Shown here: in pieces, positions 639 to 13,715 of the stretch
Position numbering within the stretch: position 1 is the first letter of the stretch
How the letters are laid out: each line of letters begins with the position of its first letter
From: a virus
Lineage: Duplodnaviria; Heunggongvirae; Uroviricota; Caudoviricetes
Virus record (IMG/VR): IMGVR_UViG_3300029094_000007
DNA length: 13,715 nt
Direction: 5' to 3' (one strand)
Position numbers and translations under genes: made by a program
Notes under the pieces: generated by a model
Seen by the model: only the letters and a program-made list of their open reading frames with translations
Databases searched by the model: none
Told to the model about the DNA's origin: nothing

Positions 639-664
639 AGGAGCCTCCTATGTCATTAATTGCG

Positions 665-1057
665 CTAGAGCGCGCGATATGGAATTTGAAGATTAAGCTG
701 GAACCAGCCATTCTTTTCGCCAACGGCTATTGAGGAAACAGCCTGGTAACTGAGACGATCGTCATCCTGAAACTCAAACAGTTCCCGCAATTTATCGGCT
801 GTCTCAGTAATGAGTTTTGAACCAGAACCTGCGGGGACAAATAACTGAATAATGATTATCCCCGTGCGATAAACAATCGGCCCCGCGCCAATTTCATTAA
901 CTCCAGCCTGCCCGGGAATATTACTTAACCGCGCCCAGATTAACTTACCGGAAGGATCGAACGTTGGCGCGTTCGGATACAATACGTCTTTTCCATCAAT
1001 AATCGTCTGTGCCGTCATTCTGGAAATAACCGTATTTCTGATTTCAGTAAACGTCAT
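665..1057 (-). CDS. Phage tail completion / tail terminator-like protein (130 aa)
   Basis: Track ORF. ATGA start/stop overlap with the upstream gp10-like gene. Canonical position between the head-tail joining genes and the tail tube gene. Function inferred from synteny. Confidence 0.45.
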   Translation of the reverse strand: MTFTEIRNTVISRMTAQTIIDGKDVLYPNAPTFDPSGKLIWARLSNIPGQAGVNEIGAGPIVYRTGIIIIQLFVPAGSGSKLITETADKLRELFEFQDDDRLSYQAVSSIAVGEKNGWFQLNLQIPYRAL

Positions 1058-1434
1058 TTGTAAGCCTGTAAAACACCATGAAAAGCGTTGGCATACACGC
1101 CAGTTGGCGCTTGTTGTGAATGACCGTTTTCAAGAGCCTCTGCATAAGGAAGGTTATTCTGGATATAAATAACTCCGTAATTTGCAGCTTTCGAAATAAC
1201 CCCGATCCCACGCTGAACCGCAATCGTACCGTTCGGATCCACGTTATCAGATATACCAAAATCGGGATGCTGTAACGACACCAGGTTGTTATTTCTGAAA
1301 CGTCCGGTATCAACCGGAGCAGCAATATCAATAGCAGTAAGAATCTGCATAGCGATGTAGCGAATTTTCAGCCCCACATCTTCCTCAATCATCCCGGCAA
1401 ATATTGACGGTTCTATATCCCATGCCTTTGCCAT
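1054..1434 (-). CDS. HK97 gp10-family head-tail joining protein (126 aa)
   Basis: Track ORF. Contains DTGRFRNN, matching the DTGR(L/F)R signature I recall for the HK97 gp10 family. Directly abuts neighbouring genes in an operon. Confidence 0.55.
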   Translation of the reverse strand: MAKAWDIEPSIFAGMIEEDVGLKIRYIAMQILTAIDIAAPVDTGRFRNNNLVSLQHPDFGISDNVDPNGTIAVQRGIGVISKAANYGVIYIQNNLPYAEALENGHSQQAPTGVYANAFHGVLQAYK

Positions 1435-1818
1435 TTACGCTCTCCTTAACTGGATAGAGTAAACTGATGCGGAAGGATCTACACTCGCTGTAATTACCTC
1501 GTATCGTTGTAACTGCCTTAATACAGGATCATAAATCTCAATAATATGGTCGACAGCGGGTTTATCCGTAACCTCGCATACCAGAGCGGTTAATTTAAGG
1601 TCACCATGCAAAATATTAATCCCATCAATTCTGCCCAGCTTATAACGTGTCAACACGCCTCGCCCGGTATAGATTGCGGTGGATTCGCCGCCAGTTTCCG
1701 TCACAGGATCCCAGTGCCGGTGCGTAACGTAAGAACCAGAAAAATCACTCACGGCGTCCGCTAAATCCTCATCAAAAGCAGCGGCAACCTCTGACTGAAT
1801 CTCTTCACGAAGCCCCAT
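1435..1818 (-). CDS. Phage head closure / head-tail adaptor protein (127 aa)
   Basis: Track ORF. Its start shares one base with the upstream stop (TAATG). Size and position are typical for this role; no diagnostic motif verified. Confidence 0.45.
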   Translation of the reverse strand: MGLREEIQSEVAAAFDEDLADAVSDFSGSYVTHRHWDPVTETGGESTAIYTGRGVLTRYKLGRIDGINILHGDLKLTALVCEVTDKPAVDHIIEIYDPVLRQLQRYEVITASVDPSASVYSIQLRRA

Positions 1819-2213
1819 TATCCCCCCCTCACAACTCTGACTTGTGAGCGACTAAGTCCGTACGGTTTCAGCAGTGCTATCGCAAGCTGTAAATCGGGTT
1901 CAAGCAATACAGTGCTGTTTGCTGGCAACTCAGCAAATGATTTCGATACACTGACCCCGTCAGCCGACACGGCTTTACTGATAACAACGCCAGAATCATT
2001 TTTCTGCTGAAACAACTTACCGAATGAGGCAATTCTGGCTGCATATGCTCCCGCAAGTTTTACCTCTTCCGGAATACGGGATGGGTTAATTTTCAGGTTG
2101 AAGCCATTAAGCCAGGCATTAGCCATCAAAACAGCTTTATTTTTAGCGTTCTCACTCGTCCAGGCGTTCCCAAACGCATTATCAACGTCATCACAGGTCA
2201 CGTAAGTGATCAT
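1818..2213 (-). CDS. Phage gp6-like head-tail connector protein (131 aa)
   Basis: Track ORF. N-terminus MITYVTCDDVDNAFG resembles the MIT..D.. start of gp6-like connector proteins. Lies downstream of the capsid gene. Confidence 0.45.
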   Translation of the reverse strand: MITYVTCDDVDNAFGNAWTSENAKNKAVLMANAWLNGFNLKINPSRIPEEVKLAGAYAARIASFGKLFQQKNDSGVVISKAVSADGVSVSKSFAELPANSTVLLEPDLQLAIALLKPYGLSRSQVRVVRGG

Positions 2214-2216
2214 GTG

Positions 2217-2393
2217 TTACTCCTGAGTTTTCCAGCCCATAGCCTTCCAGTTGTCAACTTCATCAGGATGAACATTAGCGATAGTTGGTGCGCCGGGAAA
2301 CATCTGATAATCGGTCACCATAACCACTAACTCAATTTGCGTTTTTTGTGCGGCTTCACGCTGTGCTCTTTGCTCTTTAGTTAATCCGGCCAT
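2217..2393 (-). CDS. Small hypothetical protein (58 aa), missing from the supplied track
   Basis: Hand translation gives MAGLTKEQRAQREAAQKTQIELVVMVTDYQMFPGAPTIANVHPDEVDNWKAMGWKTQE then TAA. GGAGGG lies just upstream of the ATG. It exactly fills the gap between the post-capsid hairpin and the connector gene, ending 3 nt before the connector start. Confidence 0.4.
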   Translation of the reverse strand: MAGLTKEQRAQREAAQKTQIELVVMVTDYQMFPGAPTIANVHPDEVDNWKAMGWKTQE

Positions 2394-2404
2394 ATGCCCT
2401 CCAT

Positions 2405-2426
2405 TAAAAATGGGGCCGAAGCCCCG
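2405..2426 (-). terminator. Intrinsic-terminator-like hairpin downstream of the major capsid gene
   Basis: Minus-strand RNA: GGGGC-UUCG-GCCCC followed by AUUUUUA, about 10 nt after the capsid stop codon. Short stem, so possibly only a partial terminator. Confidence 0.4.
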
Positions 2427-2435
2427 TTTGAATGT

Positions 2436-3575
2436 TTAACCAAGAATCAGACAACCATGTGCCGGCTTCACTGATGAAACACCCCATGCCAGTCCAACTT
2501 CATAGCGCACCTGGCGATACTGACGATACAGTGCAATCTGGAACGTAATCCCTGAAATCGGGTCCGTAACATTCATTACATCATCAGCATTATCGCCACC
2601 TTCCGGCATTGCCGGAGTACGGGATGCCAGCAGAAACGCGTTGCGATCAAACGCCATATTTGCAGTAAAGGAGCCAAGAACTGTGATTGCAGTATCATCG
2701 GCCAGATCCTGACGCAGTCCGGGCGCTGCAAGAGTAATCAGATTGCTGGTCGCTGCTGCCACAACATACTGATTCGGATCGCCAGCGAACGTAACAATCT
2801 GACCTGCAGAAATACTCCCCGAACCAGTATCAATGGAAATAAGAACATCGCCTTCTTTTTTCTCGCCATTCACGAGATAACCAGTTGCAGCAACCTTTGG
2901 CGCTCGTTTTACACCTGCCGAACTGTGAATATTGAATCCCTCCAGACGCCCCAACACGCCCTCACGCAGTAGCTGTTCAGTGCCGGATTCATTCACTTTA
3001 AACAGTACAGACTGTTTTCCGCGCAAATTAGCAATGGCAGTGGAGCCAAGCACCATCTGCAGATCGGTTGTCGGTGCGCCGTTATCCTCCAGAACCTGAC
3101 GAGCCAGAGCAGCATCAGAAAGATCATCTTTAACACCAAACGGCGTTGTCCCTGCGGTTCCCACGGCGCGGGAAGCACCGAAATACAACGCACCAAGATC
3201 AGCCTCAACCTCGTTTGCAAGGGCGCGAAAAGCCTGCTTGAACTGATCAGCCAGAATGGTGTTGTAAGTCCCTGAAGGGCCAAGAGCCAGTTGTTCTTCA
3301 CCATTCCATTTAACCGGTGCCATTTTGGATTTAGTAATTTTCACATCAACAGTGCCAATATTTTGATCACCGGTATTCGGAGCTGACGGCCCCGGTACGA
3401 TATCTTCGGTTTTCGCCTCAGGCGCAACTGGCGCGGTTACCGTCTGATCTTTTGCTGCGGCGTCAGCTTTTGCGTTTTTTGCTACCGCAGGGATAAAACC
3501 TACCTGCTCACGGGATACAATATCCAGGGCGGTATAAATAGTCGGGATCAACCCGGTCAGGGTATTTCCAGCCAT
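2436..3575 (-). CDS. Phage major capsid protein (380 aa from ATG at 3575; track ORF extends to 3668)
   Basis: Largest structural ORF after scaffold. The ATG at 3575 (MAGNTLTGLIPTIY...) is preceded by AAGGAA; the upstream extension to 3668 would overlap the scaffold gene end. Gly/Thr/Ala-rich composition typical of coat proteins. Family not determined. Confidence 0.65.
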   Translation of the reverse strand: MAGNTLTGLIPTIYTALDIVSREQVGFIPAVAKNAKADAAAKDQTVTAPVAPEAKTEDIVPGPSAPNTGDQNIGTVDVKITKSKMAPVKWNGEEQLALGPSGTYNTILADQFKQAFRALANEVEADLGALYFGASRAVGTAGTTPFGVKDDLSDAALARQVLEDNGAPTTDLQMVLGSTAIANLRGKQSVLFKVNESGTEQLLREGVLGRLEGFNIHSSAGVKRAPKVAATGYLVNGEKKEGDVLISIDTGSGSISAGQIVTFAGDPNQYVVAAATSNLITLAAPGLRQDLADDTAITVLGSFTANMAFDRNAFLLASRTPAMPEGGDNADDVMNVTDPISGITFQIALYRQYRQVRYEVGLAWGVSSVKPAHGCLILG

Positions 3576-3673
3576 AATTAAATATTCCTTAAAAATTTGC
3601 GTAATTGTGAATAGATGGAGTAATGAGCTATCCAGCCCTGACACCAGCACCCATCCGGAAGCTGACAAATGTG

Positions 3674-4438
3674 TTAATCAACAATTGTGATACCGTCTTT
3701 CAATGCGTTTTGCTTACCTGCAACATCCAGTGCATCAAAAGCAGAGCGTTTCATCGTTTTCTGACCAATATCATGCTGTGTCGGACGGGAGCCGCCGCCA
3801 TTGTTGCCACTGGCTTTCAGGATGTAGTCTTTCTGAGGGTAATTTTCGACGAGGAACTCCAGCGCCTCATCAAACTGCGCCAGTTCGCCAGGCTTCGCGC
3901 GGGAATAAATTTTGTTGCCGGAAGCGTCATAAGCAACGATCTTCCCTTCTTCCACTTTGAATGCCTGCCCGAAGCGGGCTTGTAATAAATCTGCCGGGAT
4001 CGCAATTTTATCGGCAATATATTTTGAACCCGCAAAACTACCGCCAATCATAGAATCGTAAAGCTGCGTCTCCAGCATCTGAGAGCGTTGCTTTTCTTCA
4101 TCTAATTGCTGCTGAAAATTTTTCGTAATTTCTGCCTTAACCTGGTCAACCTGTCCCGCATCGATCAGCTTTTTCTGGTCGATTTTTGACAGCATTTCCA
4201 GTGCCTCGATCGCCTTCTTCGGGTCTTCGATAGCGGCAAACTTAGCCAGTTTTTCCTCTGCAGCTTCTTTAGCCAGGCGATGATTTTTTGCCTCGCCATT
4301 AAGCTCTGTAATTTTTTTTATCGCCAGCGGTGCATCGAAGCCGATTTCTTTACCATCGTCGTGCACATAAACTGGCAGGCCAGCAGTATCAATTTCTGCG
4401 TATTGTTTTCCGTTAATCTCGACCGTTTTCAGTTTCAT
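3674..4438 (-). CDS. Phage capsid scaffolding protein (254 aa from ATG at 4438)
   Basis: Track ORF 3674..4510; internal start MKLKTVEINGKQY at 4438 chosen because the upstream extension runs through the terminator hairpin. Highly charged, helix-prone sequence (AKEAAEEKLAKFAAIEDPKKAIEALEMLSKIDQKKL). Sits between head morphogenesis and capsid genes. Confidence 0.5.
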   Translation of the reverse strand: MKLKTVEINGKQYAEIDTAGLPVYVHDDGKEIGFDAPLAIKKITELNGEAKNHRLAKEAAEEKLAKFAAIEDPKKAIEALEMLSKIDQKKLIDAGQVDQVKAEITKNFQQQLDEEKQRSQMLETQLYDSMIGGSFAGSKYIADKIAIPADLLQARFGQAFKVEEGKIVAYDASGNKIYSRAKPGELAQFDEALEFLVENYPQKDYILKASGNNGGGSRPTQHDIGQKTMKRSAFDALDVAGKQNALKDGITIVD

Positions 4439-4495
4439 ATTAGTACCTGGTTTAAGTCTTCCGACAGTTACGCTGCTCACCATCCGGATCGCAGC

Positions 4496-4522
4496 AATAA
4501 AAAAGGCCACCCGAAGGTAGCC
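4496..4522 (-). terminator. Intrinsic-terminator-like hairpin between head morphogenesis and scaffold genes
   Basis: Minus-strand RNA: GGCUACC-UUCG-GGUGGCC (7 bp stem with one G-U pair, UUCG tetraloop) followed by UUUUUUAUU. The plus-strand reading is also followed by a T-run, so it could act in both directions. Confidence 0.5.
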
Positions 4523-4542
4523 TTTTGTAATAAATGATTTAT

Positions 4543-5658
4543 TTAAATCCCTGCTTTTCTGAATACCTGTGCATCACGCTCACGGAGTTGCTTCAGCGTC
4601 AGCCATTCGCCTTTATCGGTGTAAAATTCATCTGGCGACATACCACCATCCCGAATCAGCTTTGCCCGGGTTTCCCCCACAATCTGTTTTTGTCTGGTGT
4701 AAGGCTGGCGCAAAAACCATTCCCTGTAGGTTGTATCTCCGGCCACCACGCCATCCATGCTGGCCCGCTCAGCCGGGGAAATATCACGAACATCAATACC
4801 CAGTTCCTTCGCTGATTTCAGAATGAACGTTTCCGTTGAGCGGCAGCAGAAATGAATTTTTCCCGGCCCCTGCAAATAAGGCACGCTGTGACCTACAGGT
4901 TTATTATCCAGCGTATATTTGAGGCGATCCCTGATTCGACATTGTGGCGTAGTACGATTATCAAGCGTTGATAACCATTGCTTACCCTTAATCAAATCAT
5001 TATTCGCGCTGGCAAAACTCTCACGGGCAGTAGCAGCAAGATGTCCAACCGCTGTTTTTGCAATGCTGGCCGCATTAGCCCGGCTCATCTGCAATGCACC
5101 ATCCTGAAATCCCTTACTGACATGTCCCCGAATTTTTCTTGCGATCTGCTCATTGGTATCCCCCAGCAAAAAACCCTGACGCACCGTATTTGTTATGCGT
5201 CTGAGCCGATCCGCCTCAAGATCCGAGGCCCACTCACTGAGCAGTCGTCCCTGGAATGGTCGCGCCATTGCAGCGGCGTAAAGTGCATCAGAAGAGATAC
5301 CAACCAGAGGGTGAACATCAGCAACAAAATCAGGTAGCAGAGAATCAAACAGACTTAACTGATAACCAGCCTCATAAATTGCCAGCTCGTTCAGCTCTCC
5401 GGAGAGACTGGTAAACATGCTGTTAATAGCAGCGCGGTTAACCTCTCTGACACTCGCCAGAAGTGACTCCAGGCGCGTAACGGTAAAACTACCAGGATCG
5501 AGGCTGTCCAGTGCTACCAGCAGGCGAGCTGTAAGCTCCGCATCGCTGTCATTCAGTATTTTCACCATTCTGGCAGCCACACCAGTGCTATAGCGGGATA
5601 TCCAGACTGCATGAGCAATTGATTCATCACGCAGCCGTTCATTCACGGTTTGCATCAT
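4543..5658 (-). CDS. Phage head morphogenesis protein, Mu gpF / SPP1 gp7-like (371 aa)
   Basis: Track ORF overlapping the portal gene 3' end. Position after portal and conserved-looking segments (TTPQCR...HFCCRST) match my recollection of the Mu-F-like minor head protein family. Confidence 0.6.
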   Translation of the reverse strand: MMQTVNERLRDESIAHAVWISRYSTGVAARMVKILNDSDAELTARLLVALDSLDPGSFTVTRLESLLASVREVNRAAINSMFTSLSGELNELAIYEAGYQLSLFDSLLPDFVADVHPLVGISSDALYAAAMARPFQGRLLSEWASDLEADRLRRITNTVRQGFLLGDTNEQIARKIRGHVSKGFQDGALQMSRANAASIAKTAVGHLAATARESFASANNDLIKGKQWLSTLDNRTTPQCRIRDRLKYTLDNKPVGHSVPYLQGPGKIHFCCRSTETFILKSAKELGIDVRDISPAERASMDGVVAGDTTYREWFLRQPYTRQKQIVGETRAKLIRDGGMSPDEFYTDKGEWLTLKQLRERDAQVFRKAGI

Positions 5659-7045
5659 TGATTTCCATCAGCATTACACTCTGATTTTTTAATTCATCGA
5701 TCACTTCCTCTGGACGGGAATCCTGATCGATAAATTTCAACGCCTGCAACACCCGAACCGCATCAATCTGACGTATATCACCGCCCTGACGCAATGACTG
5801 AACAGCCAGCGCGGAGGATGAGTCAAACACCTGGGCAGATACATCCAGTTCAGTGCGCACATCCACATTGCCACCGCAACTCTCTCCGCTCCATTCCGCC
5901 ATTATCTGGAGAATATTATCGAGGGCATCTTCGAGGGAGTTCGCCATTGTATAAAGCGGCGAGTGTTCCTGCATCCGCTCTTCATTAGTCTGATCAACAG
6001 ATTTGGTGGATGTATTTTCAGCCCGCAGAAGTTTAGCGCCGGCATGACGCATCTGATTTTCCAGCTTCTCAAGTGATGTTTCGCCAGATTCTATCGCTGC
6101 GCCACTATGTTCAACATATTCGAGGCCATTTTTTGTTCTGTCCTCAAAAATCGTAGCGGTGGATGCACCAACCGTCAGTTCTTCATTCCTGTCCAGCCCG
6201 TAGGCCACCAGCAATGGAACGCGGGCAACATGAAGAATATTGTCCTGCTCGCTCTGGCTTTGCCAGTGCTTGATATTCAGCAAGCCAAGATTAAGCAATG
6301 GCGGTGTACCACGCATAAACCCTGTTTTCTTCGTATACAGTGTTACCAGAGGAATATCATCACGGCTGGTATTCCATGACTCATGAAGCGTCCAGACAGA
6401 TTCGCCATTAGTACCTTCGCTGTGTCGATAAATTTCAACTCGACGGGGCATAATATGGCGGATCTGCTCCACCTTCTTCTGCCCGAAATCATCACCATCA
6501 ATAATGATGACCTCTTTTATACGCAAATCAGTGAGAACAACTTTCCCTTTTTCAACTTTCGATTTCCATCCAATAACCTGGCGTGGATTCAGCATCGTAA
6601 CGTACGGGCGACCACCGGCCGCGTTTTCATCGGCTTTTGTCCGAATCTCGTTCATATCCGTTCGTGGATAGTCCACCAGCGCATGTGCCACACCATATTG
6701 AAATGCGAGACTGAAAAATTGCTGCGCCCACACATCCAGTCGGCTCCCCTCCATGTCGATATTTTCTGCATATTCCCTGATTTTTTCCGGCGTTTCCTCA
6801 CTCAATACTGTCGGCTCTGCAAATATGCGCCCAATATTTTGTTTGATGCTTTCTTCATACACAGGAAGTAGCGTAGCCACAGACAGGCGTTTTTTATAAG
6901 CGTCTTCATCTTCATTAGGCCATTTGGGGAGATAATTTTCCCCCTGCCTGCGCATTTCAAGCGTACCGCCCATCAATGCGTCGTTAATATCCCACGCTTC
7001 CAGCATATCGTTATAGTCGAGGTTGGGTGTTGATATATCAGCCAT
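5639..7045 (-). CDS. Phage portal protein (468 aa)
   Basis: Track ORF starting 3 nt after the large terminase stop. Size and position are canonical for a portal; acidic C-terminal region. Confidence 0.7.
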   Translation of the reverse strand: MADISTPNLDYNDMLEAWDINDALMGGTLEMRRQGENYLPKWPNEDEDAYKKRLSVATLLPVYEESIKQNIGRIFAEPTVLSEETPEKIREYAENIDMEGSRLDVWAQQFFSLAFQYGVAHALVDYPRTDMNEIRTKADENAAGGRPYVTMLNPRQVIGWKSKVEKGKVVLTDLRIKEVIIIDGDDFGQKKVEQIRHIMPRRVEIYRHSEGTNGESVWTLHESWNTSRDDIPLVTLYTKKTGFMRGTPPLLNLGLLNIKHWQSQSEQDNILHVARVPLLVAYGLDRNEELTVGASTATIFEDRTKNGLEYVEHSGAAIESGETSLEKLENQMRHAGAKLLRAENTSTKSVDQTNEERMQEHSPLYTMANSLEDALDNILQIMAEWSGESCGGNVDVRTELDVSAQVFDSSSALAVQSLRQGGDIRQIDAVRVLQALKFIDQDSRPEEVIDELKNQSVMLMEINDANRE

Positions 7046-7047
7046 AA

Positions 7048-8358
7048 TTAAATCCGAAGTGATGTGACTCTTCCGGTCGGTTTGACAATAGGGAATTGCT
7101 TAACGATGAAATAACCTCCGGCATCATTCGGGTGATCATTGCCAGATTTTTTATCAGGCTCCCCCTTATCATCCCAGACCTGTTGCTCCAGAGATTCGGC
7201 ATATACCGGACAACGCTTCACATTAACTTTATAGCGACGCTCACCATTGGCATTGCAGAACATTGCATTCATTGAGTTAACGCGATCTTTTACTGGCGGG
7301 TTCGAGCTGTTCACCACAACGTTAAAACCTGCCTGCTTAAGCTGGGCTATATCCGTCGTACTTGCGTTACTTGATTTTCTGGAATCTCCGGAAGCATCTG
7401 GATAAATATAAATCTCCCTCACTTTCCGGTAATCATTCCCGTCATACAGCCAGAAGCGTTCTTTAATGATGCGGATCATATCCGGCGTATCGTAAGCATT
7501 GATGATTTCAGTTACCGCACATGGAAGCCCCAAACGCAGCACATGGATGATTCCCGCCATCTTTCCAACGTTAAAATCCATCCCAATATAAATCGGCTCC
7601 CCTGGCTGCTCCACTTCTTCGCAATTATTCAGTTTCCGGTCAAACTGATGGTAAACAGTACCACTTGTCAGGTTAGTAAATTGCCCTCGAAGATAGGCTT
7701 TAATCAGCTCTGGAGGGTATGATTCAAGAAGCGAAGGAATGTAATCTGCTGGCAGGTTCTTTTCATTATCGAAAGTAGATGCCTGCACCAGACCATACAG
7801 TGAGGCCAGCTCTGTTTTTTCACGCACGGCTTTAACAAACTGCTCGTAGACAAATTTGAATCCTTCCGGCGTGGTTGTAACGTCAATACCGTTGCGAAGT
7901 CCATCAATCTTATAACGCATACGCGCAATTATCTTGCGCCACGCCGTTCTGGCTTTTTCCTTCGGCAAAATGTCCAGTTCATCCACCAGCGCATTACCAA
8001 TTTTGAAACCGACGATCGTTTGTGGCTTCTCCATCGATCTGCAGATAGTGGTTCCCCGATACTGGCGTCCGTAATAAAAGTGAACCTCTTTATTTCCCTC
8101 ATTAATTTTTACGTTCAATCCCCAGTCAGCAGCAACTTCTTCCACTGTAGGGTAAAAAATATCGCGAATTTGGGGATACGTTGGCGCAAAATATCCCTGA
8201 TTTATACCTGGATGCTCCCAAATCCCCTTGCATATGCCGCCACACCCAACCCATGTTTTGCCCGAGCCAAAACCAGCAATATAGGCTTTAAATTTATGGG
8301 GCATTGAAAGAAATCGCGCCTGAGGCACATTAAGCGTCGGAGAGATCATCTTCATCAC
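7048..8358 (-). CDS. Phage terminase large subunit (436 aa; start may be one of the nearby in-frame ATGs)
   Basis: Walker A-like motif GFGSGKT near the N-terminus and acidic nuclease-type segments (YIYPDASGDS, GMDFNVG) in the C-terminal half. Overlaps the 3' end of the small terminase candidate. Confidence 0.85.
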   Translation of the reverse strand: MMKMISPTLNVPQARFLSMPHKFKAYIAGFGSGKTWVGCGGICKGIWEHPGINQGYFAPTYPQIRDIFYPTVEEVAADWGLNVKINEGNKEVHFYYGRQYRGTTICRSMEKPQTIVGFKIGNALVDELDILPKEKARTAWRKIIARMRYKIDGLRNGIDVTTTPEGFKFVYEQFVKAVREKTELASLYGLVQASTFDNEKNLPADYIPSLLESYPPELIKAYLRGQFTNLTSGTVYHQFDRKLNNCEEVEQPGEPIYIGMDFNVGKMAGIIHVLRLGLPCAVTEIINAYDTPDMIRIIKERFWLYDGNDYRKVREIYIYPDASGDSRKSSNASTTDIAQLKQAGFNVVVNSSNPPVKDRVNSMNAMFCNANGERRYKVNVKRCPVYAESLEQQVWDDKGEPDKKSGNDHPNDAGGYFIVKQFPIVKPTGRVTSLRI

Positions 8359-9424
8359 TCCTTAATCTGGCATCAACCACATTAATATTGATCGCCACAG
8401 GCTGGGGATGTTCATTATCCTCCACCGTTTCGATCTCTTTGCGCAGCTTCTGGTTTTCTATTCTGCGCCGTTCAATTTCCAGTTCCTGTAGCCGCTTATC
8501 TGCACATAATGCCCCGCCAGCAGAAAGCAAACGCAACAATTCACGCCGGGCGGCAGCCTTATCCTCCAGCAGGATCTCAACACCGTATTTTCCGAGCTTT
8601 GACCCTGCATATAATTGCCGCGCATCCCCATCAAGCAGTGTGGTATCAGCCATATAAAGCTGTCCCGTTCCCTCACCGCAGCACTTCGGGCAATCCGGAT
8701 TGGGTATGGCGTTATCAACAAAGCCGAGGCCTCCATATTCCGGCTCGGGTTTACCATCTCTGGAGGCCTGTGCCGCAGCCTTATCGAATTCTGCAATATC
8801 ACGCCACTGGTAGAGATGATTCTCGCCCCAGCAATAACGGCAGTTAACACGGCGAAATTGTGCCAACTGATTGGGGTCGGCCTGGACAATGGCCATCAAC
8901 TGGCTCACCAGTAAATCCAGGTCTGCGGTATAGCGTTTCTGGTACTGATTGCGGAAGTAGCTGATAGCACGATAAACCCTGGCATTTCTAAGCATACGAC
9001 TGGCGTTGCTGTTAGCTGTCGCACCTTGCCCCTCATAACCGGCTAGTCGGTACGCCTCTGTCGGCTTTTTACCCTGAGCAACAAGCATCGCAAACTTAGC
9101 CTGCTGGTCAGAAATGCCGAATTCATCGGGACAGAACGAAAATTCCTCCGCGTCGCCCTCATTCAGGCCCGCATCGAATACTGGCTTTTTTTCCTGAGAT
9201 TTTTCGTTCCGCTTTTGTGCAGTCTGCGCAGATTTTTTCTGCGCACTTTTTTGCGCAGTTTTGCGCATTTCTGTCTGCGCATTTTTCGGAGTTTTTTTGA
9301 TGTAACGACGGGCTGTTGCGTAATTCAGTCCCCTTGCTTCACACCATGCCACCGGAGATATACCGGAGCGGGTGTATTCAGCAATATACTCCTGCTGCAA
9401 CGCCCCCCAGTCCGGTCTGCTCAT
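8330..9424 (-). CDS. Candidate terminase small subunit / DNA-recognition protein, unusually long (364 aa)
   Basis: N-terminal helix-turn-helix-like segment (ISPVAWCEARGLNYATARRYI) as in many small terminases. Followed by a low-complexity AQK-rich linker, a Cys cluster (CRYC ... CPKCC) and a C-terminal charged coiled-coil-like segment. Immediately upstream of, and overlapping, the large terminase gene. Confidence 0.55.
   Translation of the reverse strand: MSRPDWGALQQEYIAEYTRSGISPVAWCEARGLNYATARRYIKKTPKNAQTEMRKTAQKSAQKKSAQTAQKRNEKSQEKKPVFDAGLNEGDAEEFSFCPDEFGISDQQAKFAMLVAQGKKPTEAYRLAGYEGQGATANSNASRMLRNARVYRAISYFRNQYQKRYTADLDLLVSQLMAIVQADPNQLAQFRRVNCRYCWGENHLYQWRDIAEFDKAAAQASRDGKPEPEYGGLGFVDNAIPNPDCPKCCGEGTGQLYMADTTLLDGDARQLYAGSKLGKYGVEILLEDKAAARRELLRLLSAGGALCADKRLQELEIERRRIENQKLRKEIETVEDNEHPQPVAININVVDARLRSDEDDLSDA
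9225..9281. repeat. Five copies of palindromic hexamer TGCGCA, each followed by a T-run, inside the small terminase gene
   Basis: TGCGCA at 9225, 9240, 9252, 9262 and 9276 on the plus strand, each followed by a run of T. On the coding strand this encodes the reiterated AQK peptide. Confidence 0.6.
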
Positions 9425-9427
9425 CAG

Positions 9428-9679
9428 TTAGTCCTGATTTTTATCCACCCTGAGTAGTTCGCGCAGAGCAAAGGCATCCCCTTTTCTGGCAAGCTTAAAC
9501 AATGCCGCTCGTAACTCGGCTTCACCTTTCGCTCTGCCCTTACGGATGGCCGCATAAAAATCTGTCATTGCTTCCCGATTTTCTTTCAGTCGGTTCAGAT
9601 CAACATCCAGAACGTCAGCGATTTGTTGTGCAGTCATCCGGCACGCTGCCAGAGACTCGACTTTCGAATACGGAATCAT
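9428..9679 (-). CDS. Small DNA-binding-like protein (83 aa), possibly terminase-associated
   Basis: Track ORF packed 3 nt from both neighbours. Helix-rich basic sequence (MTAQQIADVLDVDLNRLKE...RKGRAKGEAELRAALFKLARKGD). Function inferred only from position and composition. Confidence 0.4.
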   Translation of the reverse strand: MIPYSKVESLAACRMTAQQIADVLDVDLNRLKENREAMTDFYAAIRKGRAKGEAELRAALFKLARKGDAFALRELLRVDKNQD

Positions 9680-9682
9680 TTG

Positions 9683-10564
9683 TCACCCCATTGATATGCA
9701 GGGTGTCTTCTTCCTGTATTTTTCGTGAAGGATTTTTACTGCAGCGTTGTTCCAGGTGACCTGATGGTGAATGCGTTTATGGCTGGCACCCATCAGTGAG
9801 ATTTTTACGCACGACGGCGCATACATGACGGAGTAAAAACTTTTAACGTAGGTTCCGGAATCCAGATACAGCTCGGTCATTCCGCCGCTGTTTTTCTGCG
9901 TCTGTTTCTGCCCTAACTGGACAGCACCGATCGTCATAAACAATTCACCACAGCGACCGAGATTCGTGTACGTATTCACATCCTCGTTAATGCGCCCCAT
10001 GAATGAGAACGGTCGATCAACCGAACAGATAAAGCTGTTCATTGCCTTGCGTTTCACCCACGAAGCATGGCCGCCATTGTCACCAAGAAAATCCCCGCCC
10101 TGCGACATAGCGATGGAAAGCGCGGGTATTGATTCGTAATACGCCAGCATTTCAGAAAGGATCGCATCCAGTTTCCTTATCGGGAAATAGGCCTGGTCAT
10201 AGTTGCGATCCACCCGAAACTGGAACTCGTGATAATCATCATCGAGCTGAATGAAGTATTTACACCCGACCAGTTTTGCCAGGTCGAAACAGGCATTACG
10301 GGCGTAAAAAATTGAGCGGCGGTCACCAAAATTATCGGCTTCGTCAAAACGACTGGCGATATCGGCTTTGGAAAATACCAGCACCTGTTCACCAAATTCA
10401 GCCATGTACTGATGCCGTGTCTTATCTTCATCATCAACAACGATAAAAATTTTCCCGGTATAGCCAGCACGACGCAACGTCCGGTAAGTCAGAACTTTTT
10501 CCGGTCGTCCGTGAGTCAGAATAAAGGCGCAAAAATCATCACGCATATTCCTCCTCCCCGCCAT
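9683..10564 (-). CDS. Hypothetical protein, possibly GT-A-fold glycosyltransferase-like (293 aa; alternative start at 10546)
   Basis: Track ORF. The second in-frame ATG at 10546 is preceded by GGGAGGAGG and overlaps the ParB-like gene stop (ATGCGTGA). Pattern FCAFILTHGRPE ... IFIVVDDED ... FIQLDDDYHEF resembles the beta1-TxNR, DD and DxD elements of GT2-type enzymes. This is motif-level inference only. Confidence 0.55.
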   Translation of the reverse strand: MAGRRNMRDDFCAFILTHGRPEKVLTYRTLRRAGYTGKIFIVVDDEDKTRHQYMAEFGEQVLVFSKADIASRFDEADNFGDRRSIFYARNACFDLAKLVGCKYFIQLDDDYHEFQFRVDRNYDQAYFPIRKLDAILSEMLAYYESIPALSIAMSQGGDFLGDNGGHASWVKRKAMNSFICSVDRPFSFMGRINEDVNTYTNLGRCGELFMTIGAVQLGQKQTQKNSGGMTELYLDSGTYVKSFYSVMYAPSCVKISLMGASHKRIHHQVTWNNAAVKILHEKYRKKTPCISMG

Positions 10565-11327
10565 GCATGATCTCCACCATGCGCTGCGTCATTCGGACAA
10601 ATCCATTTTCAATAGCCTGCTGATAATCAATGATCACCAGCGCCGACTCCTCGAAAAGGCACTGAATTTCAGCGGGGGCATGAGCGTAATAGTCCGCAAT
10701 TCTGCTGAAATTAAACACCGTGTGACGTTCTGCCGCACACAGGAGGAATTTCTCAATATCAGGATCAAGGGACGCCGAACGTATCCGGCTGATCAGCTCC
10801 TGAGTTTTCGTATCGTCGTACAGTTCACTGATATCCGGTTTACCGCCCGACGGCTCATAAACAGGCGTATCAATTTTCGTCGTATACGGCTCCTCCTTAT
10901 TTCCTATACCGGGCAAAACATCCGTCAACAGTTCATCAATTTCTGTCGGGCCGAAGCCTGTCAGGGAGACATCAAAATCAGCATTGATTAGGACCGACAG
11001 CTCCATCCGCAACAGATCTTCATCCCAGCCAGCATTCATCGGTAGGCGATTATCTGCCAAGCGGTACGCCTTTTTCTGCTCATCCGTCAGGCCAGACAGA
11101 ACAATGACCGGAACAGAATCCATTTTGAGCATTTCAGCCGCCATAACACGACCGTGACCCGCAATAATTTCGCCCTTTTCGTCAATCAGCACCGGATTAG
11201 TCCAGCCGAATTGCTTAATACTTTCTACCAGTTGTGCCACCTGCTCAGTACTGTGCGTCCTGGCGTTGTGCGCATACGGTGACAATTCTTGTAATGGGCG
11301 ATAGACTATCTTTAATTTCTCGCTCAT
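10539..11327 (-). CDS. ParB-like nuclease domain (ParB/Srx N-terminal fold) protein (262 aa)
   Basis: N-terminal region PLQELSPYAHNARTHSTEQVAQLVESIKQFGWTNPVLID...IIAGHGRVMAA matches the ParB/sulfiredoxin-type signature (the G-H-R segment). C-terminal half is acidic. AAGG precedes the ATG. Confidence 0.7.
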   Translation of the reverse strand: MSEKLKIVYRPLQELSPYAHNARTHSTEQVAQLVESIKQFGWTNPVLIDEKGEIIAGHGRVMAAEMLKMDSVPVIVLSGLTDEQKKAYRLADNRLPMNAGWDEDLLRMELSVLINADFDVSLTGFGPTEIDELLTDVLPGIGNKEEPYTTKIDTPVYEPSGGKPDISELYDDTKTQELISRIRSASLDPDIEKFLLCAAERHTVFNFSRIADYYAHAPAEIQCLFEESALVIIDYQQAIENGFVRMTQRMVEIMHGGEEEYA

Positions 11328-11343
11328 ACAGCCTTGCTTTATG

Positions 11344-11379
11344 AATAAAACGCACCCCAGCAGCCAGTGCTACTGGGGG
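11344..11379 (-). terminator. Terminator-like hairpin downstream of trkG
   Basis: Minus-strand RNA: CCCCAGUAGC-ACUG-GCUGCUGGGG (about 10 bp including one G-U pair), then UGCGUUUUAUU. The U-run is 4 nt from the stem, so strength is uncertain. Confidence 0.4.
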
Positions 11380-11464
11380 CGGAGGTGTTGCTGGTAAAGT
11401 TAGGTATTGGATCAATGAGTGAGTCAATATAATATTAAACTCACAATTATAAATCAGCCATATA

Positions 11465-12922
11465 TTAGGAGCGCCAAAAAAAAACTGAAAACAATATAAT
11501 AACAGGATAAATTTCAAGGCGACCAAGAATCATAGCTATGCACATTAAATATTTTGCAATGTCATTAAGCACTCCGAATGACGATGCAGTAGCCCCAAAA
11601 CCTAATCCCATATTATTAATACATGCAGCCACTGTTGCAAATGATGTAAGAAAATCATATCCCATACCATTTAACACCAGTATAAAAAACACCGTGAAGA
11701 GAGTATAAAGAAAAAAGAAACTCCATACAGACCTCATTACACGATCTGTAACTATCTTCCCTCCTACATTTACACTCAACAACGCTCTGGGATGAGAAAG
11801 CTGATTTATCTCGTGTTTGCTTTGTTTGAAAAGTATAAGAAATCGAAGTGACTTAATTCCACCACAAGTTGAACCTATACATCCCCCAAAGAAACTTGAC
11901 AACAGCAAAAACACTATCGTGTGCGTGGGCCAGTTTGCATAATCTTGCGTAGCTAAACCATTATCAGTGAGCATGGAGCTGGCAAGAAAAAACGAATGAA
12001 TAAAACTTCCATGCAAGTCATACATACCTATATGCCAGACCTGGAAAGAGGTAACAATGACCACCACTAAGGCTATTAACAGAAAGAAACGAAGTTCAAT
12101 ATCTCTGATTAAAGGTTTTATCGTTTTTCTGCTAATAACAATATACCAAAGAGTAAAGTTGAAAGCCGATAGCAGGGAAAAAGCACCAGCCACCAGCTCA
12201 ACCAAATAGTTATTAAAATATCCGATACTCTCGCTATGAGTTGAGAAACCACCAAGCGAAACTGTGGAAATCCCGTGACAAATAGCATCAAACAAAGGCA
12301 TTCCTGCAAGTCTATAACAGACAATACAAGCAATACCTAATAAAGAATAAGTTATCCACAGTGTCCGTGACGTATCGGCCAGGCGGGGAGTGAGTTTGTC
12401 ATCCTTAAATGGCCCCGGCATTTCTGACTGATAAAGCTTTGCACCACCAATACCCAATAATGGCAATACTGCAACCGCCAGAACAATAACTCCTAAACCA
12501 CCTATAAAATTTAACTGTGACCGATAGTACAAATATGCCCGAGGTAATGAACTAACATCATCAATTACAGTTGCTCCTGTTGTTGTTATTCCAGAAACCC
12601 CTTCAAACAGAGCATCAATGAACGTTAAATTAAGTTCTGAGTCAATCCATAAAGGGAATGCACTAATAACAGAAAACAAAATCCAAAACATTACAATTAT
12701 AATAAACCCATCACGGGTACGTAATTGAATGCCAGATTTCTTAGTTGTATACCACGCTCCGCCACCAATGCAAAAAAATATAACGAAAGTTATAAAGAAA
12801 ACGAACAGGCTTTTTTCTTTATAAAACAATGCTACAACCATTGGTGGCAACATTGAAAGACTATAGAGCCAAACCAGGAACCCACACATATGAGTAACAA
12901 CTCTTACATGAGATGTATTCAT
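11465..12922 (-). CDS. trkG: Trk-system potassium uptake protein TrkG (485 aa)
   Basis: The translation (MNTSHVRVVTHMCGFLVWLYS ... ILFSVFFWRS) matches my recollection of E. coli TrkG essentially throughout. Multi-pass membrane protein. The track ORF begins at a TTG six codons upstream; the ATG at 12922 gives the expected length. The gene is visibly more AT-rich than its neighbours. Confidence 0.9.
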   Translation of the reverse strand: MNTSHVRVVTHMCGFLVWLYSLSMLPPMVVALFYKEKSLFVFFITFVIFFCIGGGAWYTTKKSGIQLRTRDGFIIIVMFWILFSVISAFPLWIDSELNLTFIDALFEGVSGITTTGATVIDDVSSLPRAYLYYRSQLNFIGGLGVIVLAVAVLPLLGIGGAKLYQSEMPGPFKDDKLTPRLADTSRTLWITYSLLGIACIVCYRLAGMPLFDAICHGISTVSLGGFSTHSESIGYFNNYLVELVAGAFSLLSAFNFTLWYIVISRKTIKPLIRDIELRFFLLIALVVVIVTSFQVWHIGMYDLHGSFIHSFFLASSMLTDNGLATQDYANWPTHTIVFLLLSSFFGGCIGSTCGGIKSLRFLILFKQSKHEINQLSHPRALLSVNVGGKIVTDRVMRSVWSFFFLYTLFTVFFILVLNGMGYDFLTSFATVAACINNMGLGFGATASSFGVLNDIAKYLMCIAMILGRLEIYPVIILFSVFFWRS

Positions 12923-12939
12923 ATCTAAATATTCTTTCA

Positions 12940-12973
12940 ATTATAACCACCTTGCTGCAATATTATGATTATA
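12940..12973 (-). promoter_or_regulatory. AT-rich putative trkG promoter region with two TATAAT hexamers
   Basis: On the minus strand, exact TATAAT hexamers lie at 12940-12945 and 12968-12973, just upstream of the trkG ATG. No convincing -35 element found, so this is tentative. Confidence 0.3.
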
Positions 12974-13059
12974 CTGTATAAAATTTAACTCCTCTTAGAT
13001 CTTACTTCACTGTTCCTTATGAAACAATCATCAAAATGAATCATATTGTAGTTAAGATT

Positions 13060-13521
13060 TTACTTTAAACACTGTTCGGTTATGTATTGCTGAGCACCTT
13101 CAAGTTGGGCCTGCATCATTACCAGTCGTTCCCGGAGGGTGAAATAATCCCGTTCAGCGGTGTCTGCCAGTCTGGGGGAGACTGCATTATCCACGCTGGA
13201 GGTGGCGGTGGCTTCACGCACTGACTGACAGACTGCTTTGATGCGCAACCGACGACGACCAGCGGCAACATCATCACGCAGAGCATCATTTTCAGCTTTC
13301 GCATCAGCTAACTCCTTCAGGTATTTTGCATCGAGTGCAGCAACATCACGCTGGCGTATCTGCATGTCAGTAATGATTGCGGTCGCCTGGTTGAGTTTTT
13401 CCGTCACATTATCGCGTTGCGCTTTGTAGGTAATGGCATTATCACGGTAATGATTAACAGCCCATGACAGGCAGACGATGATGCAGATAACCAGAGCATA
13501 AATAATCACGGCAACTCTGCT

Positions 13522-13524
<3 letters not shown>
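13060..13524 (-). CDS. Rz: Spanin inner-membrane subunit Rz (i-spanin), 154 aa from GTG at 13524
   Basis: Translation is near-identical to lambda-family Rz as I recall it (...[27 protein letters not shown]...[31 protein letters not shown]...[19 protein letters not shown]...). The track starts at a TTG at 13539; the GTG at 13524 corresponds to the lambda MSRV start and follows GGGGGA. Confidence 0.9.
13119..13304 (-). CDS. Rz1: Spanin outer-membrane lipoprotein subunit Rz1 (o-spanin), 61 aa, embedded in Rz in another frame
   Basis: [20 protein letters not shown]... carries a lipobox (VVGC) and a proline-rich segment (PPPPPAW), matching lambda Rz1 closely. Lies entirely inside Rz in a different frame. 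Confidence 0.9.

Positions 13525-13715
<191 letters not shown>

What the first reader, a model, noticed from the sequence alone, without database searches (positions are those of the whole stretch)
11344..13059. AT-rich trkG cargo gene inserted between the spanin genes and the packaging module
The trkG coding sequence is conspicuously AT-rich relative to the flanking phage genes. It has its own AT-rich upstream region with TATAAT hexamers and a downstream hairpin, so it behaves like a self-contained moron. In E. coli K-12, trkG is known to sit in the Rac prophage next to rzpR/rzoR, and this window reproduces that juxtaposition.
Basis: partly seen in the sequence, partly recalled or inferred. 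Interest (0 to 1): 0.4.

Follow-up and report, generated by a model that had tools for sequence, protein, structure and literature searches.

The report
trkG cargo gene of Rac prophage

Summary
Window 11465-12922 (minus strand) encodes a 485-aa protein that matches K-12 TrkG at 479/485 residues. It is 37.8% GC (GC3 31.9%), against 44.6-51.2% for the 15 other genes in the window. A 137-bp spacer of 25.5% GC lies upstream. The gene sits between Rz/Rz1 and the ParB-like ynaK gene, as in K-12 Rac.

The window is the undeleted form of that prophage. K-12 retains only window 11074-13497.

Comparison with relatives bounds the foreign block at about 11398-13069.
- **Terminator:** the strong hairpin at 11378-11355 is real, but relatives without trkG also have a hairpin at that position. 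It is therefore not trkG's own.
- **Promoter:** sequence evidence is marginal. Published SELEX and lux-reporter data supply it.
- **Empty site:** no exact Rz|ynaK junction exists in 5,426 E. coli genomes.
- **Origin:** TrkG-type genes are ordinary chromosomal genes, compositionally native, in most Enterobacterales. The Rac allele is a low-GC mobile offshoot, at most 79% identical to any relative outside Escherichia.
- **Spread:** it occurs in 29% of complete E. coli genomes, is under purifying selection, and is also found on conjugative plasmids.

The foreign origin, low GC, Rac location, own promoter and H-NS repression are all published. Verdict: already known, low interest.

The parts
11398..13069 (-). 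Foreign AT-rich block (the trkG moron), about 1.67 kb, as bounded by comparison with relatives
   Evidence: Relatives with ynaK but no trkG become homologous to the window at 11397 or 11381. Lambda-type Rz homology ends at about 13070. GC steps occur at both edges.
11465..12922 (-). trkG CDS, 485 aa, K+-translocating subunit of the Trk system
   Evidence: Pfam TrkH 1.4e-143. TIGR00933 scores 415.9 bits against a cutoff of 331. 479/485 identical to K-12 TrkG. 41% identical to TrkH. PDB TrkH 3PJZ/4J9U at E about 4e-122. GC 37.8%, GC3 31.9%.
12923..13059 (-). Upstream spacer of 137 bp and 25.5% GC; presumed site of the trkG promoter and of H-NS binding
   Evidence: GC. Identical to K-12 across the spacer. 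It lies inside the 509-bp K-12 fragment that drove lux in Tanudjaja et al. 2022. A genomic-SELEX RpoD promoter peak was reported at trkG.
12968..12973 (-). Distal TATAAT hexamer, ending 45 nt before the ATG
   Evidence: No -35 partner; not flagged by the consensus scan.
12940..12945 (-). Proximal TATAAT hexamer, ending 17 nt before the ATG; the motif GTATAATTGA is shared with the chromosomal trkG-like gene of E. fergusonii
   Evidence: homology to E. fergusonii reaches 12946.
11398..11464 (-). AT-rich 3' tail of the block, with a weak hairpin at 11419-11444 and no T-run
   Evidence: Fold is -9.6 kcal/mol, z = -1.06, not distinguishable from shuffles. This stretch has no counterpart in trkG-less relatives or in the E. 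albertii allele, where homology stops at 11461.
11345..11378 (-). Intrinsic-terminator-like hairpin (10-bp stem, 4-nt loop) plus T-run, just upstream of ynaK; belongs to the phage backbone, not to the trkG block
   Evidence: The homologous position in trkG-less relatives L019, L052, L072 and L080 also folds into a hairpin followed by UUUUUUAUU.
13060..13524 (-). Rz (i-spanin), upstream neighbour; GTG start overlaps the endolysin stop codon
   Evidence: Pfam Phage_lysis 1.3e-48. Annotated as a 465-nt lysis protein in relatives.
13119..13304 (-). Rz1 (o-spanin lipoprotein), embedded in Rz
   Evidence: Pfam Rz1 1.1e-18. Annotated rzoD in the identical genome.
10539..11327 (-). Full-length ynaK (262 aa, ParB_N/Srx domain), downstream neighbour; K-12 ynaK is its N-terminal stump
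   Evidence: Pfam ParB_N. phrog_620 2.6e-88. K-12 homology stops at window 11074.

Best explanation
Window ~11398-13069 is the trkG moron of Rac-family lambdoid prophages. It is a single-gene, AT-rich block lodged in the late operon directly after the spanin genes Rz/Rz1. Downstream lie ParB-like ynaK, a glycosyltransferase gene and the terminase genes.

Shown here: the gene is trkG (99% identical to K-12). The block is compositionally foreign. Its edges are at about 13069 and 11398. The window is the undeleted form of the prophage, of which K-12 Rac keeps only a stump. The allele is conserved and under purifying selection.

Taken from published work on K-12: TrkG is the membrane subunit of a Trk K+ uptake system that uses the host's TrkA. 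It takes up K+ in a Na+-dependent way. It is transcribed in the lysogen from its own sigma-70 promoter and is partly repressed by H-NS/StpA, as expected for AT-rich foreign DNA.

Inferred: trkG lies on the late strand downstream of the Q-type antiterminator and the lysis genes. It must therefore also be read through during lytic growth by antiterminated RNA polymerase, which then passes the backbone hairpin at 11378-11355 to reach ynaK and the terminase genes. In the lysogen that same hairpin probably ends the trkG transcript, although it was not imported with trkG.

Inferred origin: capture from a low-GC member of the TrkG paralogue family, which is chromosomal across Enterobacterales, followed by spread with the Rz end among prophages and onto plasmids.
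For: Identity.
Composition.
Synteny with K-12 Rac and with the intact prophage (ydaS-T-U-V ... Q-like, holin, lysozyme, Rz/Rz1, trkG, ynaK, TerS, TerL, portal, capsid, tail, ydaY).
Edges of the block.
Hairpin.
Prevalence: trkG in 1,551 of 5,426 complete E. coli genomes, 1,507 records at 99% identity or more. The whole window is at least 80% covered in 709 genomes.
Selection: dN/dS is 0.05 against the E. albertii allele and 0.25 against K-12. 70 of 75 IMG/VR copies are intact.
Origin: the closest relatives outside Escherichia are 75-79% identical and lie in non-phage chromosomal contexts. In 68 of 77 other Enterobacterales species the TrkG-type gene is within 0.04 GC of its flanks, and none has a match to the window's Rz, ynaK, glycosyltransferase or terminase proteins within 6 kb.
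Literature: foreign origin, 38% GC, rac location, H-NS/StpA repression, Na+-dependent K+ uptake, promoter-lux activity (PMC9898762). [quoted passage not shown]
Against: No exact empty site (Rz directly followed by ynaK) exists in 5,426 E. coli genomes. The four trkG-less relatives have a different lysis cassette (Phage_holin_8 and Peptidase_M15_4). Insertion is therefore inferred from composition and mosaic breakpoints, not from a before/after pair.

Promoter motifs are no more frequent than in shuffles, and no transcription start is mapped here. No flanking direct or inverted repeats mark an insertion mechanism.

No donor is identified. The Rac allele (37.8% GC) is more AT-rich than its nearest relatives (42-46% GC).

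Late-operon read-through and termination at the hairpin are untested.
Confidence: 0.9

Rival explanations
1. A fully self-contained moron: trkG arrived with both its own promoter and its own terminator, the hairpin at 11378-11355.
For: The hairpin is strong and canonical and lies 87 nt after the trkG stop codon. A published definition of morons includes their own promoter and terminator.
Against: Relatives lacking trkG are homologous to the window from 11397/11381 through the hairpin region into ynaK. They fold into a terminator-like hairpin with a U-run at the same position. GC has already risen to 0.53 over 11350-11429. The E. albertii allele shares nothing beyond 11461. The only hairpin inside the block (11419-11444) is weak and has no T-run.
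Confidence: 0.12
2. trkG chiefly serves the phage rather than the lysogen. As a late-operon gene it would be highly expressed before lysis, to keep up K+ uptake and turgor for late protein synthesis and packaging.
For: It shares strand and position with the late genes, downstream of the Q-like antiterminator and the lysis genes. It shows strong purifying selection and intactness in prophages. Linkage to the Rz end is conserved even in E. albertii and on plasmids.
Against: K-12 Rac has lost its lysis, packaging and head genes yet keeps an intact, expressed trkG that contributes to K+ supply. Relatives of the same phage group lack it. Position after Rz is a usual slot for lysogenic-conversion genes such as lambda bor (established knowledge). 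There are no data on burst size.
Confidence: 0.08
3. This is not an insertion. trkG is an old resident gene of this phage lineage, and its AT-richness reflects the amino-acid composition of a polytopic membrane protein.
For: No exact empty site was found. 75 of 79 informative IMG/VR loci with this ynaK carry trkG.
Against: The deficit is largest at synonymous third positions (GC3 0.319 against 0.467). GC2 (0.391) lies within the flank range. trkH, with the same fold, has GC3 0.626. The non-coding spacer is 25.5% GC. The family is chromosomal and compositionally native in most Enterobacterales. Homology breakpoints coincide with the GC steps.
Confidence: 0.03
4. Host DNA was picked up by aberrant prophage excision, in the manner of specialised transduction.
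For: The literature speaks loosely of acquisition 'through bacteriophage transduction'.
Against: The gene lies in the middle of the late operon, between the lysis genes and ynaK/terminase. It is not next to the attachment site, which in K-12 Rac lies beside intR and ttcA. It is compositionally unlike E. coli chromosomal genes and is only 41% identical to E. coli trkH.
Confidence: 0.02

Closest known systems
trkG (b1363) of the cryptic Rac prophage of E. coli K-12
   Same: Same gene: 479/485 aa and 99.1% nt identity. The upstream spacer is identical. The neighbours are the same, rzpR/rzoR on one side and ynaK on the other. The published properties apply: foreign, about 38% GC, H-NS-repressed, Na+-dependent K+ uptake with TrkA.
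   Different: K-12 Rac is deleted on both sides. Homology to the window covers only 11074-13497. K-12 therefore has a truncated Rz pseudogene, an 87-aa ynaK stump and no terminase or head genes. The window carries the intact late region.
Classical lambdoid morons, such as lambda bor downstream of Rz/Rz1 and HK97 gene 15
   Same: Extra DNA with deviant GC between conserved phage genes, expressed from the repressed prophage (definition in PMC3594210). trkG occupies the slot just after Rz/Rz1. That bor occupies this slot in lambda is from established knowledge, not tested here.
   Different: trkG is a large 12-helix-type transporter gene on the late strand, not a small gene. The terminator that follows it belongs to the phage backbone. 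No exact empty site was found.
TrkH, the core Trk K+ transporter subunit (E. coli b3849; V. parahaemolyticus structures 3PJZ and 4J9U)
   Same: Same family and length. Pfam TrkH matches over the full length. 41% identity to E. coli TrkH.
   Different: A paralogue, not an orthologue. It scores 452.7 bits against the 866-bit cutoff of the NCBIfam TrkH equivalog model. GC is 37.8% against 53.1%. Its transport is Na+-dependent according to the literature.
Chromosomal TrkG-type genes of other Enterobacterales (Enterobacter, Citrobacter, Buttiauxella, Serratia, Pantoea, Morganella, Xenorhabdus and others)
   Same: 61-79% aa identity over the full length; the same paralogue clade.
   Different: In those species the gene has no match to the window's Rz, ynaK, glycosyltransferase or terminase proteins within 6 kb. 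In 68 of 77 species its GC is within 0.04 of its flanks, so it is native there. Only the Escherichia (Rac-type) copies and one Pectobacterium copy are markedly AT-rich relative to their flanks.

Membership tests
TrkH/TrkG family K+ uptake protein (Pfam PF02386, TIGR00933) | Full-length match above the curated cutoffs | tested here: met
   PF02386 479.4 bits (cutoff 27), residues 40-480. TIGR00933 415.9 bits (cutoff 331.15). PDB TrkH 3PJZ/4J9U at E about 4e-122 over residues 7-485.
TrkG orthologue (E. coli K-12 b1363) | Near-identity to K-12 TrkG and the same neighbours (Rz/Rz1 upstream, ynaK downstream) | tested here: met
   479/485 identical. Window 11074-13497 aligns to K-12 Rac at 97.9%. 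Gene order.
TrkH orthologue (NCBIfam NF008020 equivalog) | Score at or above the equivalog cutoff of 866 bits | tested here: not met
   452.7 bits and 41% identity to K-12 TrkH. It is the TrkG paralogue, not TrkH.
Trk system function | K+ uptake that depends on TrkA (and SapD) and, for TrkG, on Na+ | not testable with these tools
   Reported for the 99%-identical K-12 protein (PMC9898762). trkA is not in the window.
Moron (Juhala/Hendrix sense, as summarised in PMC3594210) | [quoted passage not shown] | tested here: met
   37.8% against 47.8 +/- 2.1%, z = -4.8. GC3 31.9% against 46.7%. Spacer 25.5%.
Moron | Extra DNA absent from related phages at the same position | tested here: inconclusive
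   Four IMG/VR relatives have the same ynaK-terminase module without trkG, with the breakpoint at 11397/11381. Lambda-type phages have the same Rz without trkG, with the breakpoint at about 13070. No genome joins this Rz directly to this ynaK (0 of 5,426).
Moron | Own promoter | tested here: inconclusive
   Two TATAAT hexamers, P = 0.045, with no -35 elements. The scan found 7 sites against 7.0 expected. Published evidence for K-12 with an identical spacer: an RpoD SELEX peak and lux activity from a 509-bp fragment equivalent to window ~13431-12923.
Moron | Own terminator | tested here: not met
   The terminator-like hairpin at 11378-11355 lies in sequence shared with trkG-less relatives. The hairpin inside the block is weak and has no T-run (z = -1.06). 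trkG is still followed by a terminator, but a borrowed one.
Moron | Expressed from the repressed prophage | not testable with these tools
   Shown for K-12 Rac, where the transcript level is similar to that of trkH.
Rac-family lambdoid prophage | Collinearity with K-12 Rac genes on both sides of the K-12 deletions | tested here: met
   The genome identical to the window has ydaS, ydaT, ydaU and ydaV upstream and ydaY beyond the tail genes, matching the K-12 order ydaS-T-U-V-W, rzpR/rzoR, trkG, ynaK, ydaY.
H-NS-silenced xenogeneic DNA | AT-rich relative to the host genome, and H-NS bound or repressed | tested here: inconclusive
   AT-richness is met. H-NS binding cannot be tested here. Derepression in delta-hns and delta-hns delta-stpA strains, and ChIP-chip agreement, are reported for K-12.

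The most novel reading that the evidence does not exclude
The most novel reading not excluded is that the Rac trkG block is an actively selected, horizontally travelling ion-transport module rather than a passive passenger. It would be a low-GC offshoot of an otherwise chromosomal Enterobacterales paralogue. It moves linked to the 3' end of Rz between prophages (E. coli, E. ruysiae, E. albertii) and onto conjugative plasmids in Klebsiella, Enterobacter and Citrobacter. It is also expressed in the late operon, where Na+-coupled K+ uptake could benefit phage production as well as the lysogen.
Probability: 0.1. Interest if true: 0.4.

Novelty: already known. Interest (0 to 1): 0.12.

Why it matters
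It matters little as a discovery. The foreign origin of trkG, its low GC, its place in Rac, its own promoter and its H-NS repression are all published (Schlosser et al. 1991 as cited; PMC9898762; PMC5811629).

The modest added value is context.
- The window shows the ancestral, undeleted setting of trkG in an apparently intact Rac-type prophage.
- Comparison sets the block's edges at about 11398 and 13069.
- The terminator after trkG belongs to the phage backbone.
- TrkG-type genes are native chromosomal genes across Enterobacterales, so the phage most probably captured the gene from a bacterium.
- About 29% of complete E. coli genomes, and a few conjugative plasmids in other genera, carry this allele.

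Tried and rejected
- **Empty-site search.** An 800-nt query joining 400 nt of ynaK to 400 nt of Rz was run against 5,426 E. coli genomes. No record covered 80% or more, so there is no before/after pair.
- **Deposited phages as evidence of packaging.** The ten 'Escherichia/Salmonella phage' records with trkG include the nine vB_Eco records, which are PHASTER-predicted prophages from genome assemblies, not sequenced virions. They do not show that trkG is packaged.
- **Schlosser et al. 1991 (PMC207911).** The paper is not held. Its content is cited only through PMC9898762.
- **Structured RNAs.** Rfam (gathering thresholds) and tRNA scans of the whole window found nothing.
- **Insertion scars.** The search for flanking direct or inverted repeats gave only short AT-rich chance matches. 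No transposition-type scar or att-like repeat was found.
- **Consensus promoter scan.** Not enriched over shuffles, so promoter calls from sequence were not relied on.
- **Donor search.** The nearest relatives outside Escherichia are 75-79% identical in protein and about 70% in DNA, with similarity confined to the CDS plus at most 24 nt upstream. No donor was identified.
- **ParB plus TET-associated glycosyltransferase.** The literature search returned nothing relevant.
- **Amino-acid composition and specialised transduction** as explanations were considered and rejected; see the rival explanations.
Full report
**What is there.** All genes in the window lie on the minus strand. Reading in gene order from the high coordinates, they are:
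- the 3' end of an endolysin gene (13521-13715);
- Rz (13060-13524), with Rz1 embedded at 13119-13304;
- a 137-bp spacer;
- trkG (11465-12922);
- a 137-bp spacer;
- a 262-aa ParB_N-domain gene (ynaK, 10539-11327);
- a TAGT-family glycosyltransferase gene (9683-10546);
- an 83-aa ORF;
- the small and large terminase subunits (8330-9424 and 7048-8349);
- portal, minor head, scaffold-like, P22-type capsid, head-tail and tail genes.

The window matches several E. coli chromosomes at 100% over 1-13640. In one of them the region is flanked by ydaS-ydaT-ydaU-ydaV, a Q-like antiterminator gene and holin and lysozyme genes on one side, and by ydaY on the other. This is therefore the late half of an apparently intact Rac-type lambdoid prophage.

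**Checking the observation.** GC in 400-nt windows drops to 0.33-0.41 across 11201-13200, against 0.44-0.53 elsewhere.
- trkG is 37.8% GC with GC3 31.9%. The 15 other CDS average 47.8% (sd 2.1) and GC3 46.7%, which puts trkG at z = -4.8 and -3.5.
- The upstream spacer is 25.5% GC.
- The deficit is greatest at third codon positions, and GC2 (0.391) is within the flank range. E. coli trkH, with the same fold, is 53.1% GC and GC3 62.6%. The bias is therefore mutational, pointing to foreign origin, and is not a by-product of membrane-protein composition.
- The protein has a full-length Pfam TrkH match (1.4e-143). It passes the TrkH-family subfamily model but not the TrkH equivalog cutoff. It is 479/485 identical to K-12 TrkG and 41% identical to K-12 TrkH.
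- Two TATAAT hexamers lie in the spacer at 12973-12968 and 12945-12940. In sequence this AT-rich, two or more occur in 4.5% of shuffles. Neither has a -35 partner, and the consensus scan finds no excess of promoter-like sites (7 against 7.0 +/- 2.9).
- The downstream hairpin is real and strong: 11378-11355, 10 pairs, followed by a T-run, z about -3.

**Relation to K-12 Rac.** Only window 11074-13497 aligns to K-12 Rac, at 97.9%. K-12 has lost everything from mid-ynaK to ydaY, which removed the terminase, head and most tail genes. It has also lost everything from ydaW to mid-Rz, which removed the Q-like, holin and lysozyme genes. The rzpR/rzoR-trkG-ynaK juxtaposition is thus reproduced. The window shows what that juxtaposition looked like before the deletions.

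**Edges of the foreign block.** Of 80 IMG/VR loci encoding this ynaK at 96% identity or more, 75 carry trkG just upstream, one is too short to judge, and four lack it.
- In three of those four, homology to the window begins at 11397, and in the fourth at 11381. It then runs through ynaK into the terminase genes.
- Upstream of that point they have a different lysis cassette (Phage_holin_8 holin, Peptidase_M15_4 endolysin) and small unrelated ORFs.
- On the other side, homology to lambda-type Rz genes ends at window ~13070, within 10 nt of the Rz stop codon.
- Both breakpoints coincide with the GC steps, so the block is about 11398-13069.
- The E. albertii allele (92% aa, 84% nt) shares only 13102-11461 with the window. 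That stretch is the last about 40 nt of Rz, the spacer and trkG up to its stop codon. It sits in a decayed prophage remnant with different downstream DNA.

**The hairpin is not trkG's own.** The hairpin lies in the segment shared with the trkG-less relatives. Those relatives also fold into a long hairpin followed by UUUUUUAUU at the homologous position. The only hairpin inside the block (11419-11444) is weak and has no T-run (z = -1.06). trkG is therefore followed by a terminator that belongs to the phage backbone. The 'self-contained' picture holds at most for the promoter side.

**Was it inserted?** No E. coli genome among 5,426 joins this Rz directly to this ynaK, and no flanking repeats mark a mechanism. 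Insertion is inferred from composition and mosaic breakpoints, which is usual for morons. One of the defining features, absence from related phages at the same position, is met only in mosaic form.

**Origin.** Outside Escherichia the closest proteins are 75-79% identical, from E. fergusonii, Citrobacter sp. and Pectobacterium. They lie in non-phage chromosomal contexts, and DNA similarity is limited to the CDS plus at most 24 nt upstream.

A scan of one genome per species returned 80 loci. Rac-type alleles at 92% or more occur only in E. coli, E. ruysiae and E. albertii. In the remaining 77 species no locus has a match to the window's Rz, ynaK, glycosyltransferase or terminase proteins within 6 kb. 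In 68 of the 77 the gene's GC is within 0.04 of its flanks. These species include Enterobacter, Citrobacter, Buttiauxella, Serratia, Pantoea, Morganella and Xenorhabdus.

TrkG is therefore a native chromosomal paralogue across Enterobacterales, and the Rac copy is a low-GC mobile offshoot. No donor was identified. The Rac allele is more AT-rich than its nearest relatives, which are 42-46% GC.

**Distribution and selection.**
- trkG occurs in 1,551 of 5,426 complete E. coli genomes, nearly always once and at 99% identity or more.
- The whole 13.7-kb arrangement is present in 709 genomes.
- dN/dS is 0.05 against the E. albertii allele and 0.25 against K-12 (6 non-synonymous and 7 synonymous differences). 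70 of 75 IMG/VR copies are intact.
- The block at 99.4% identity also sits on 15 plasmids, 12 of them predicted conjugative, in E. coli, Klebsiella, Enterobacter and Citrobacter. In the one plasmid examined, the IncA plasmid pA18-1, it lies in a scrambled prophage fragment (Rz, trkG, a tail-fibre-assembly gene) bracketed by Tn3-family, IS26 and IS5 elements.
- Among 50,697 phage records only 24 encode any TrkH-family protein. Ten are Rac-type, and the nine vB_Eco records among them come from a study of PHASTER-predicted prophages. The rest are bacterial contigs or uncultured sequences at 30-43% identity.

**How it most likely works.**
- Shown in the literature for the 99%-identical K-12 gene, whose upstream spacer is identical: TrkG mediates Na+-dependent K+ uptake with TrkA. 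Its transcript level is similar to that of trkH. It rises in delta-hns and delta-hns delta-stpA strains. A 509-bp upstream fragment, equivalent to window ~13431-12923, drives a lux reporter.
- Also from the literature: genomic SELEX with RpoD holoenzyme found one of the few constitutive promoters in Rac at trkG. [quoted passage not shown]
- Inferred here: trkG lies on the late strand between the lysis genes and ynaK/terminase. Antiterminated late transcription must cross it and the backbone hairpin during lytic growth. In the lysogen the hairpin probably ends the trkG transcript.

**Verdict.** Everything essential is already published, so it is 'already known' and of low interest. This analysis adds four refinements: the block edges, the borrowed terminator, the chromosomal TrkG family as the likely source, and the prevalence and plasmid spread.

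Noticed in passing
window 10539-11327 (-) and 9683-10546 (-): ynaK is a full-length 262-aa ParB_N/Srx protein here (phrog_620, 2.6e-88), so K-12 ynaK (87 aa) is only its N-terminal stump. The next gene is a TAGT 'TET-associated glycosyltransferase' (PF20691 3.7e-35; phrog_842 'beta-glucosyl-HMC-alpha-glucosyltransferase' 1.6e-102), and no TET/JBP gene is in the window. Lactobacillus phages phiLdb and c5 (near the start of the record) and jlb1 have a 41%-identical ParB-like gene beside a gene with the same glycosyltransferase annotation. This may be a conserved DNA-modification pair just upstream of the small terminase subunit.
   Followed up: partly
L001 12071-12328 (equivalent to window 11070-11327): RefSeq annotates the intact 262-aa ynaK ORF of the identical genome as a 258-nt 'partial, missing C-terminus' pseudogene. 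This looks like an annotation artefact, presumably from using the truncated K-12 ynaK as the reference.
   Followed up: partly
window 13641-13715: The last 75 nt, inside the endolysin gene, do not align to the genomes that otherwise match the window at 100% over 1-13640. This indicates a mosaic recombination joint within the endolysin gene. The source of the divergent segment was not sought.
   Followed up: no
window 9428-9679 (-): The 83-aa ORF between the glycosyltransferase gene and the small terminase subunit matches only the C-terminal part of a small-terminase PHROG (phrog_309, profile positions 145-218 of 319). It may be a split or duplicated small-terminase fragment.
   Followed up: no
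L072 2878-4096; L019 3100-3996: Relatives with the same ynaK-terminase module but no trkG carry other cargo upstream of their lysis genes. L072 has a pertussis-toxin-S1-like ADP-ribosyltransferase (241 aa, PF02917 4e-15) plus a 160-aa partner ORF. L019 has an AraC-family regulator.
   Followed up: partly
L092 (E. albertii NBRC 107761) 5819-9043: A diverged trkG allele (92% aa, 84% nt) lies in a decayed prophage remnant between copC/copD-like genes and an rsmF-like methyltransferase gene. A holin-like pseudogene lies upstream, and an NleF-like effector gene (PF16809 7e-10) and a phosphatase-like gene lie downstream. Only the Rz 3' end, the spacer and trkG are shared with the window.
   Followed up: partly
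L170 (C. freundii plasmid pA18-1, IncA) 8022-11181, and 14 other plasmids: The trkG block at 99.4% identity occurs on 15 plasmids (12 predicted conjugative) in E. coli, Klebsiella, Enterobacter and Citrobacter. In the one plasmid examined (pA18-1) it lies in a rearranged prophage fragment (Rz, trkG, a tail-fibre-assembly gene) bracketed by Tn3-family, IS26 and IS5 elements next to ars genes.
   Followed up: partly
L095 (Pectobacterium brasiliense) 6001-7455; L087: The Pectobacterium trkG-like gene (75-76% aa) is also AT-rich relative to its flanks (41.6% against 50.8% GC). In L087 it sits directly after the core ychF gene. This looks like a second, non-phage horizontal acquisition of the low-GC TrkG sublineage.
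   Followed up: no
H26: E. coli TUM9803, NZ_CP135671.1 3080156-3095130: In this genome the otherwise identical 13.6-kb region aligns in two pieces spanning about 15 kb, with an IS3-family transposase annotated under the match. An IS has apparently inserted into the prophage's structural region.
   Followed up: no
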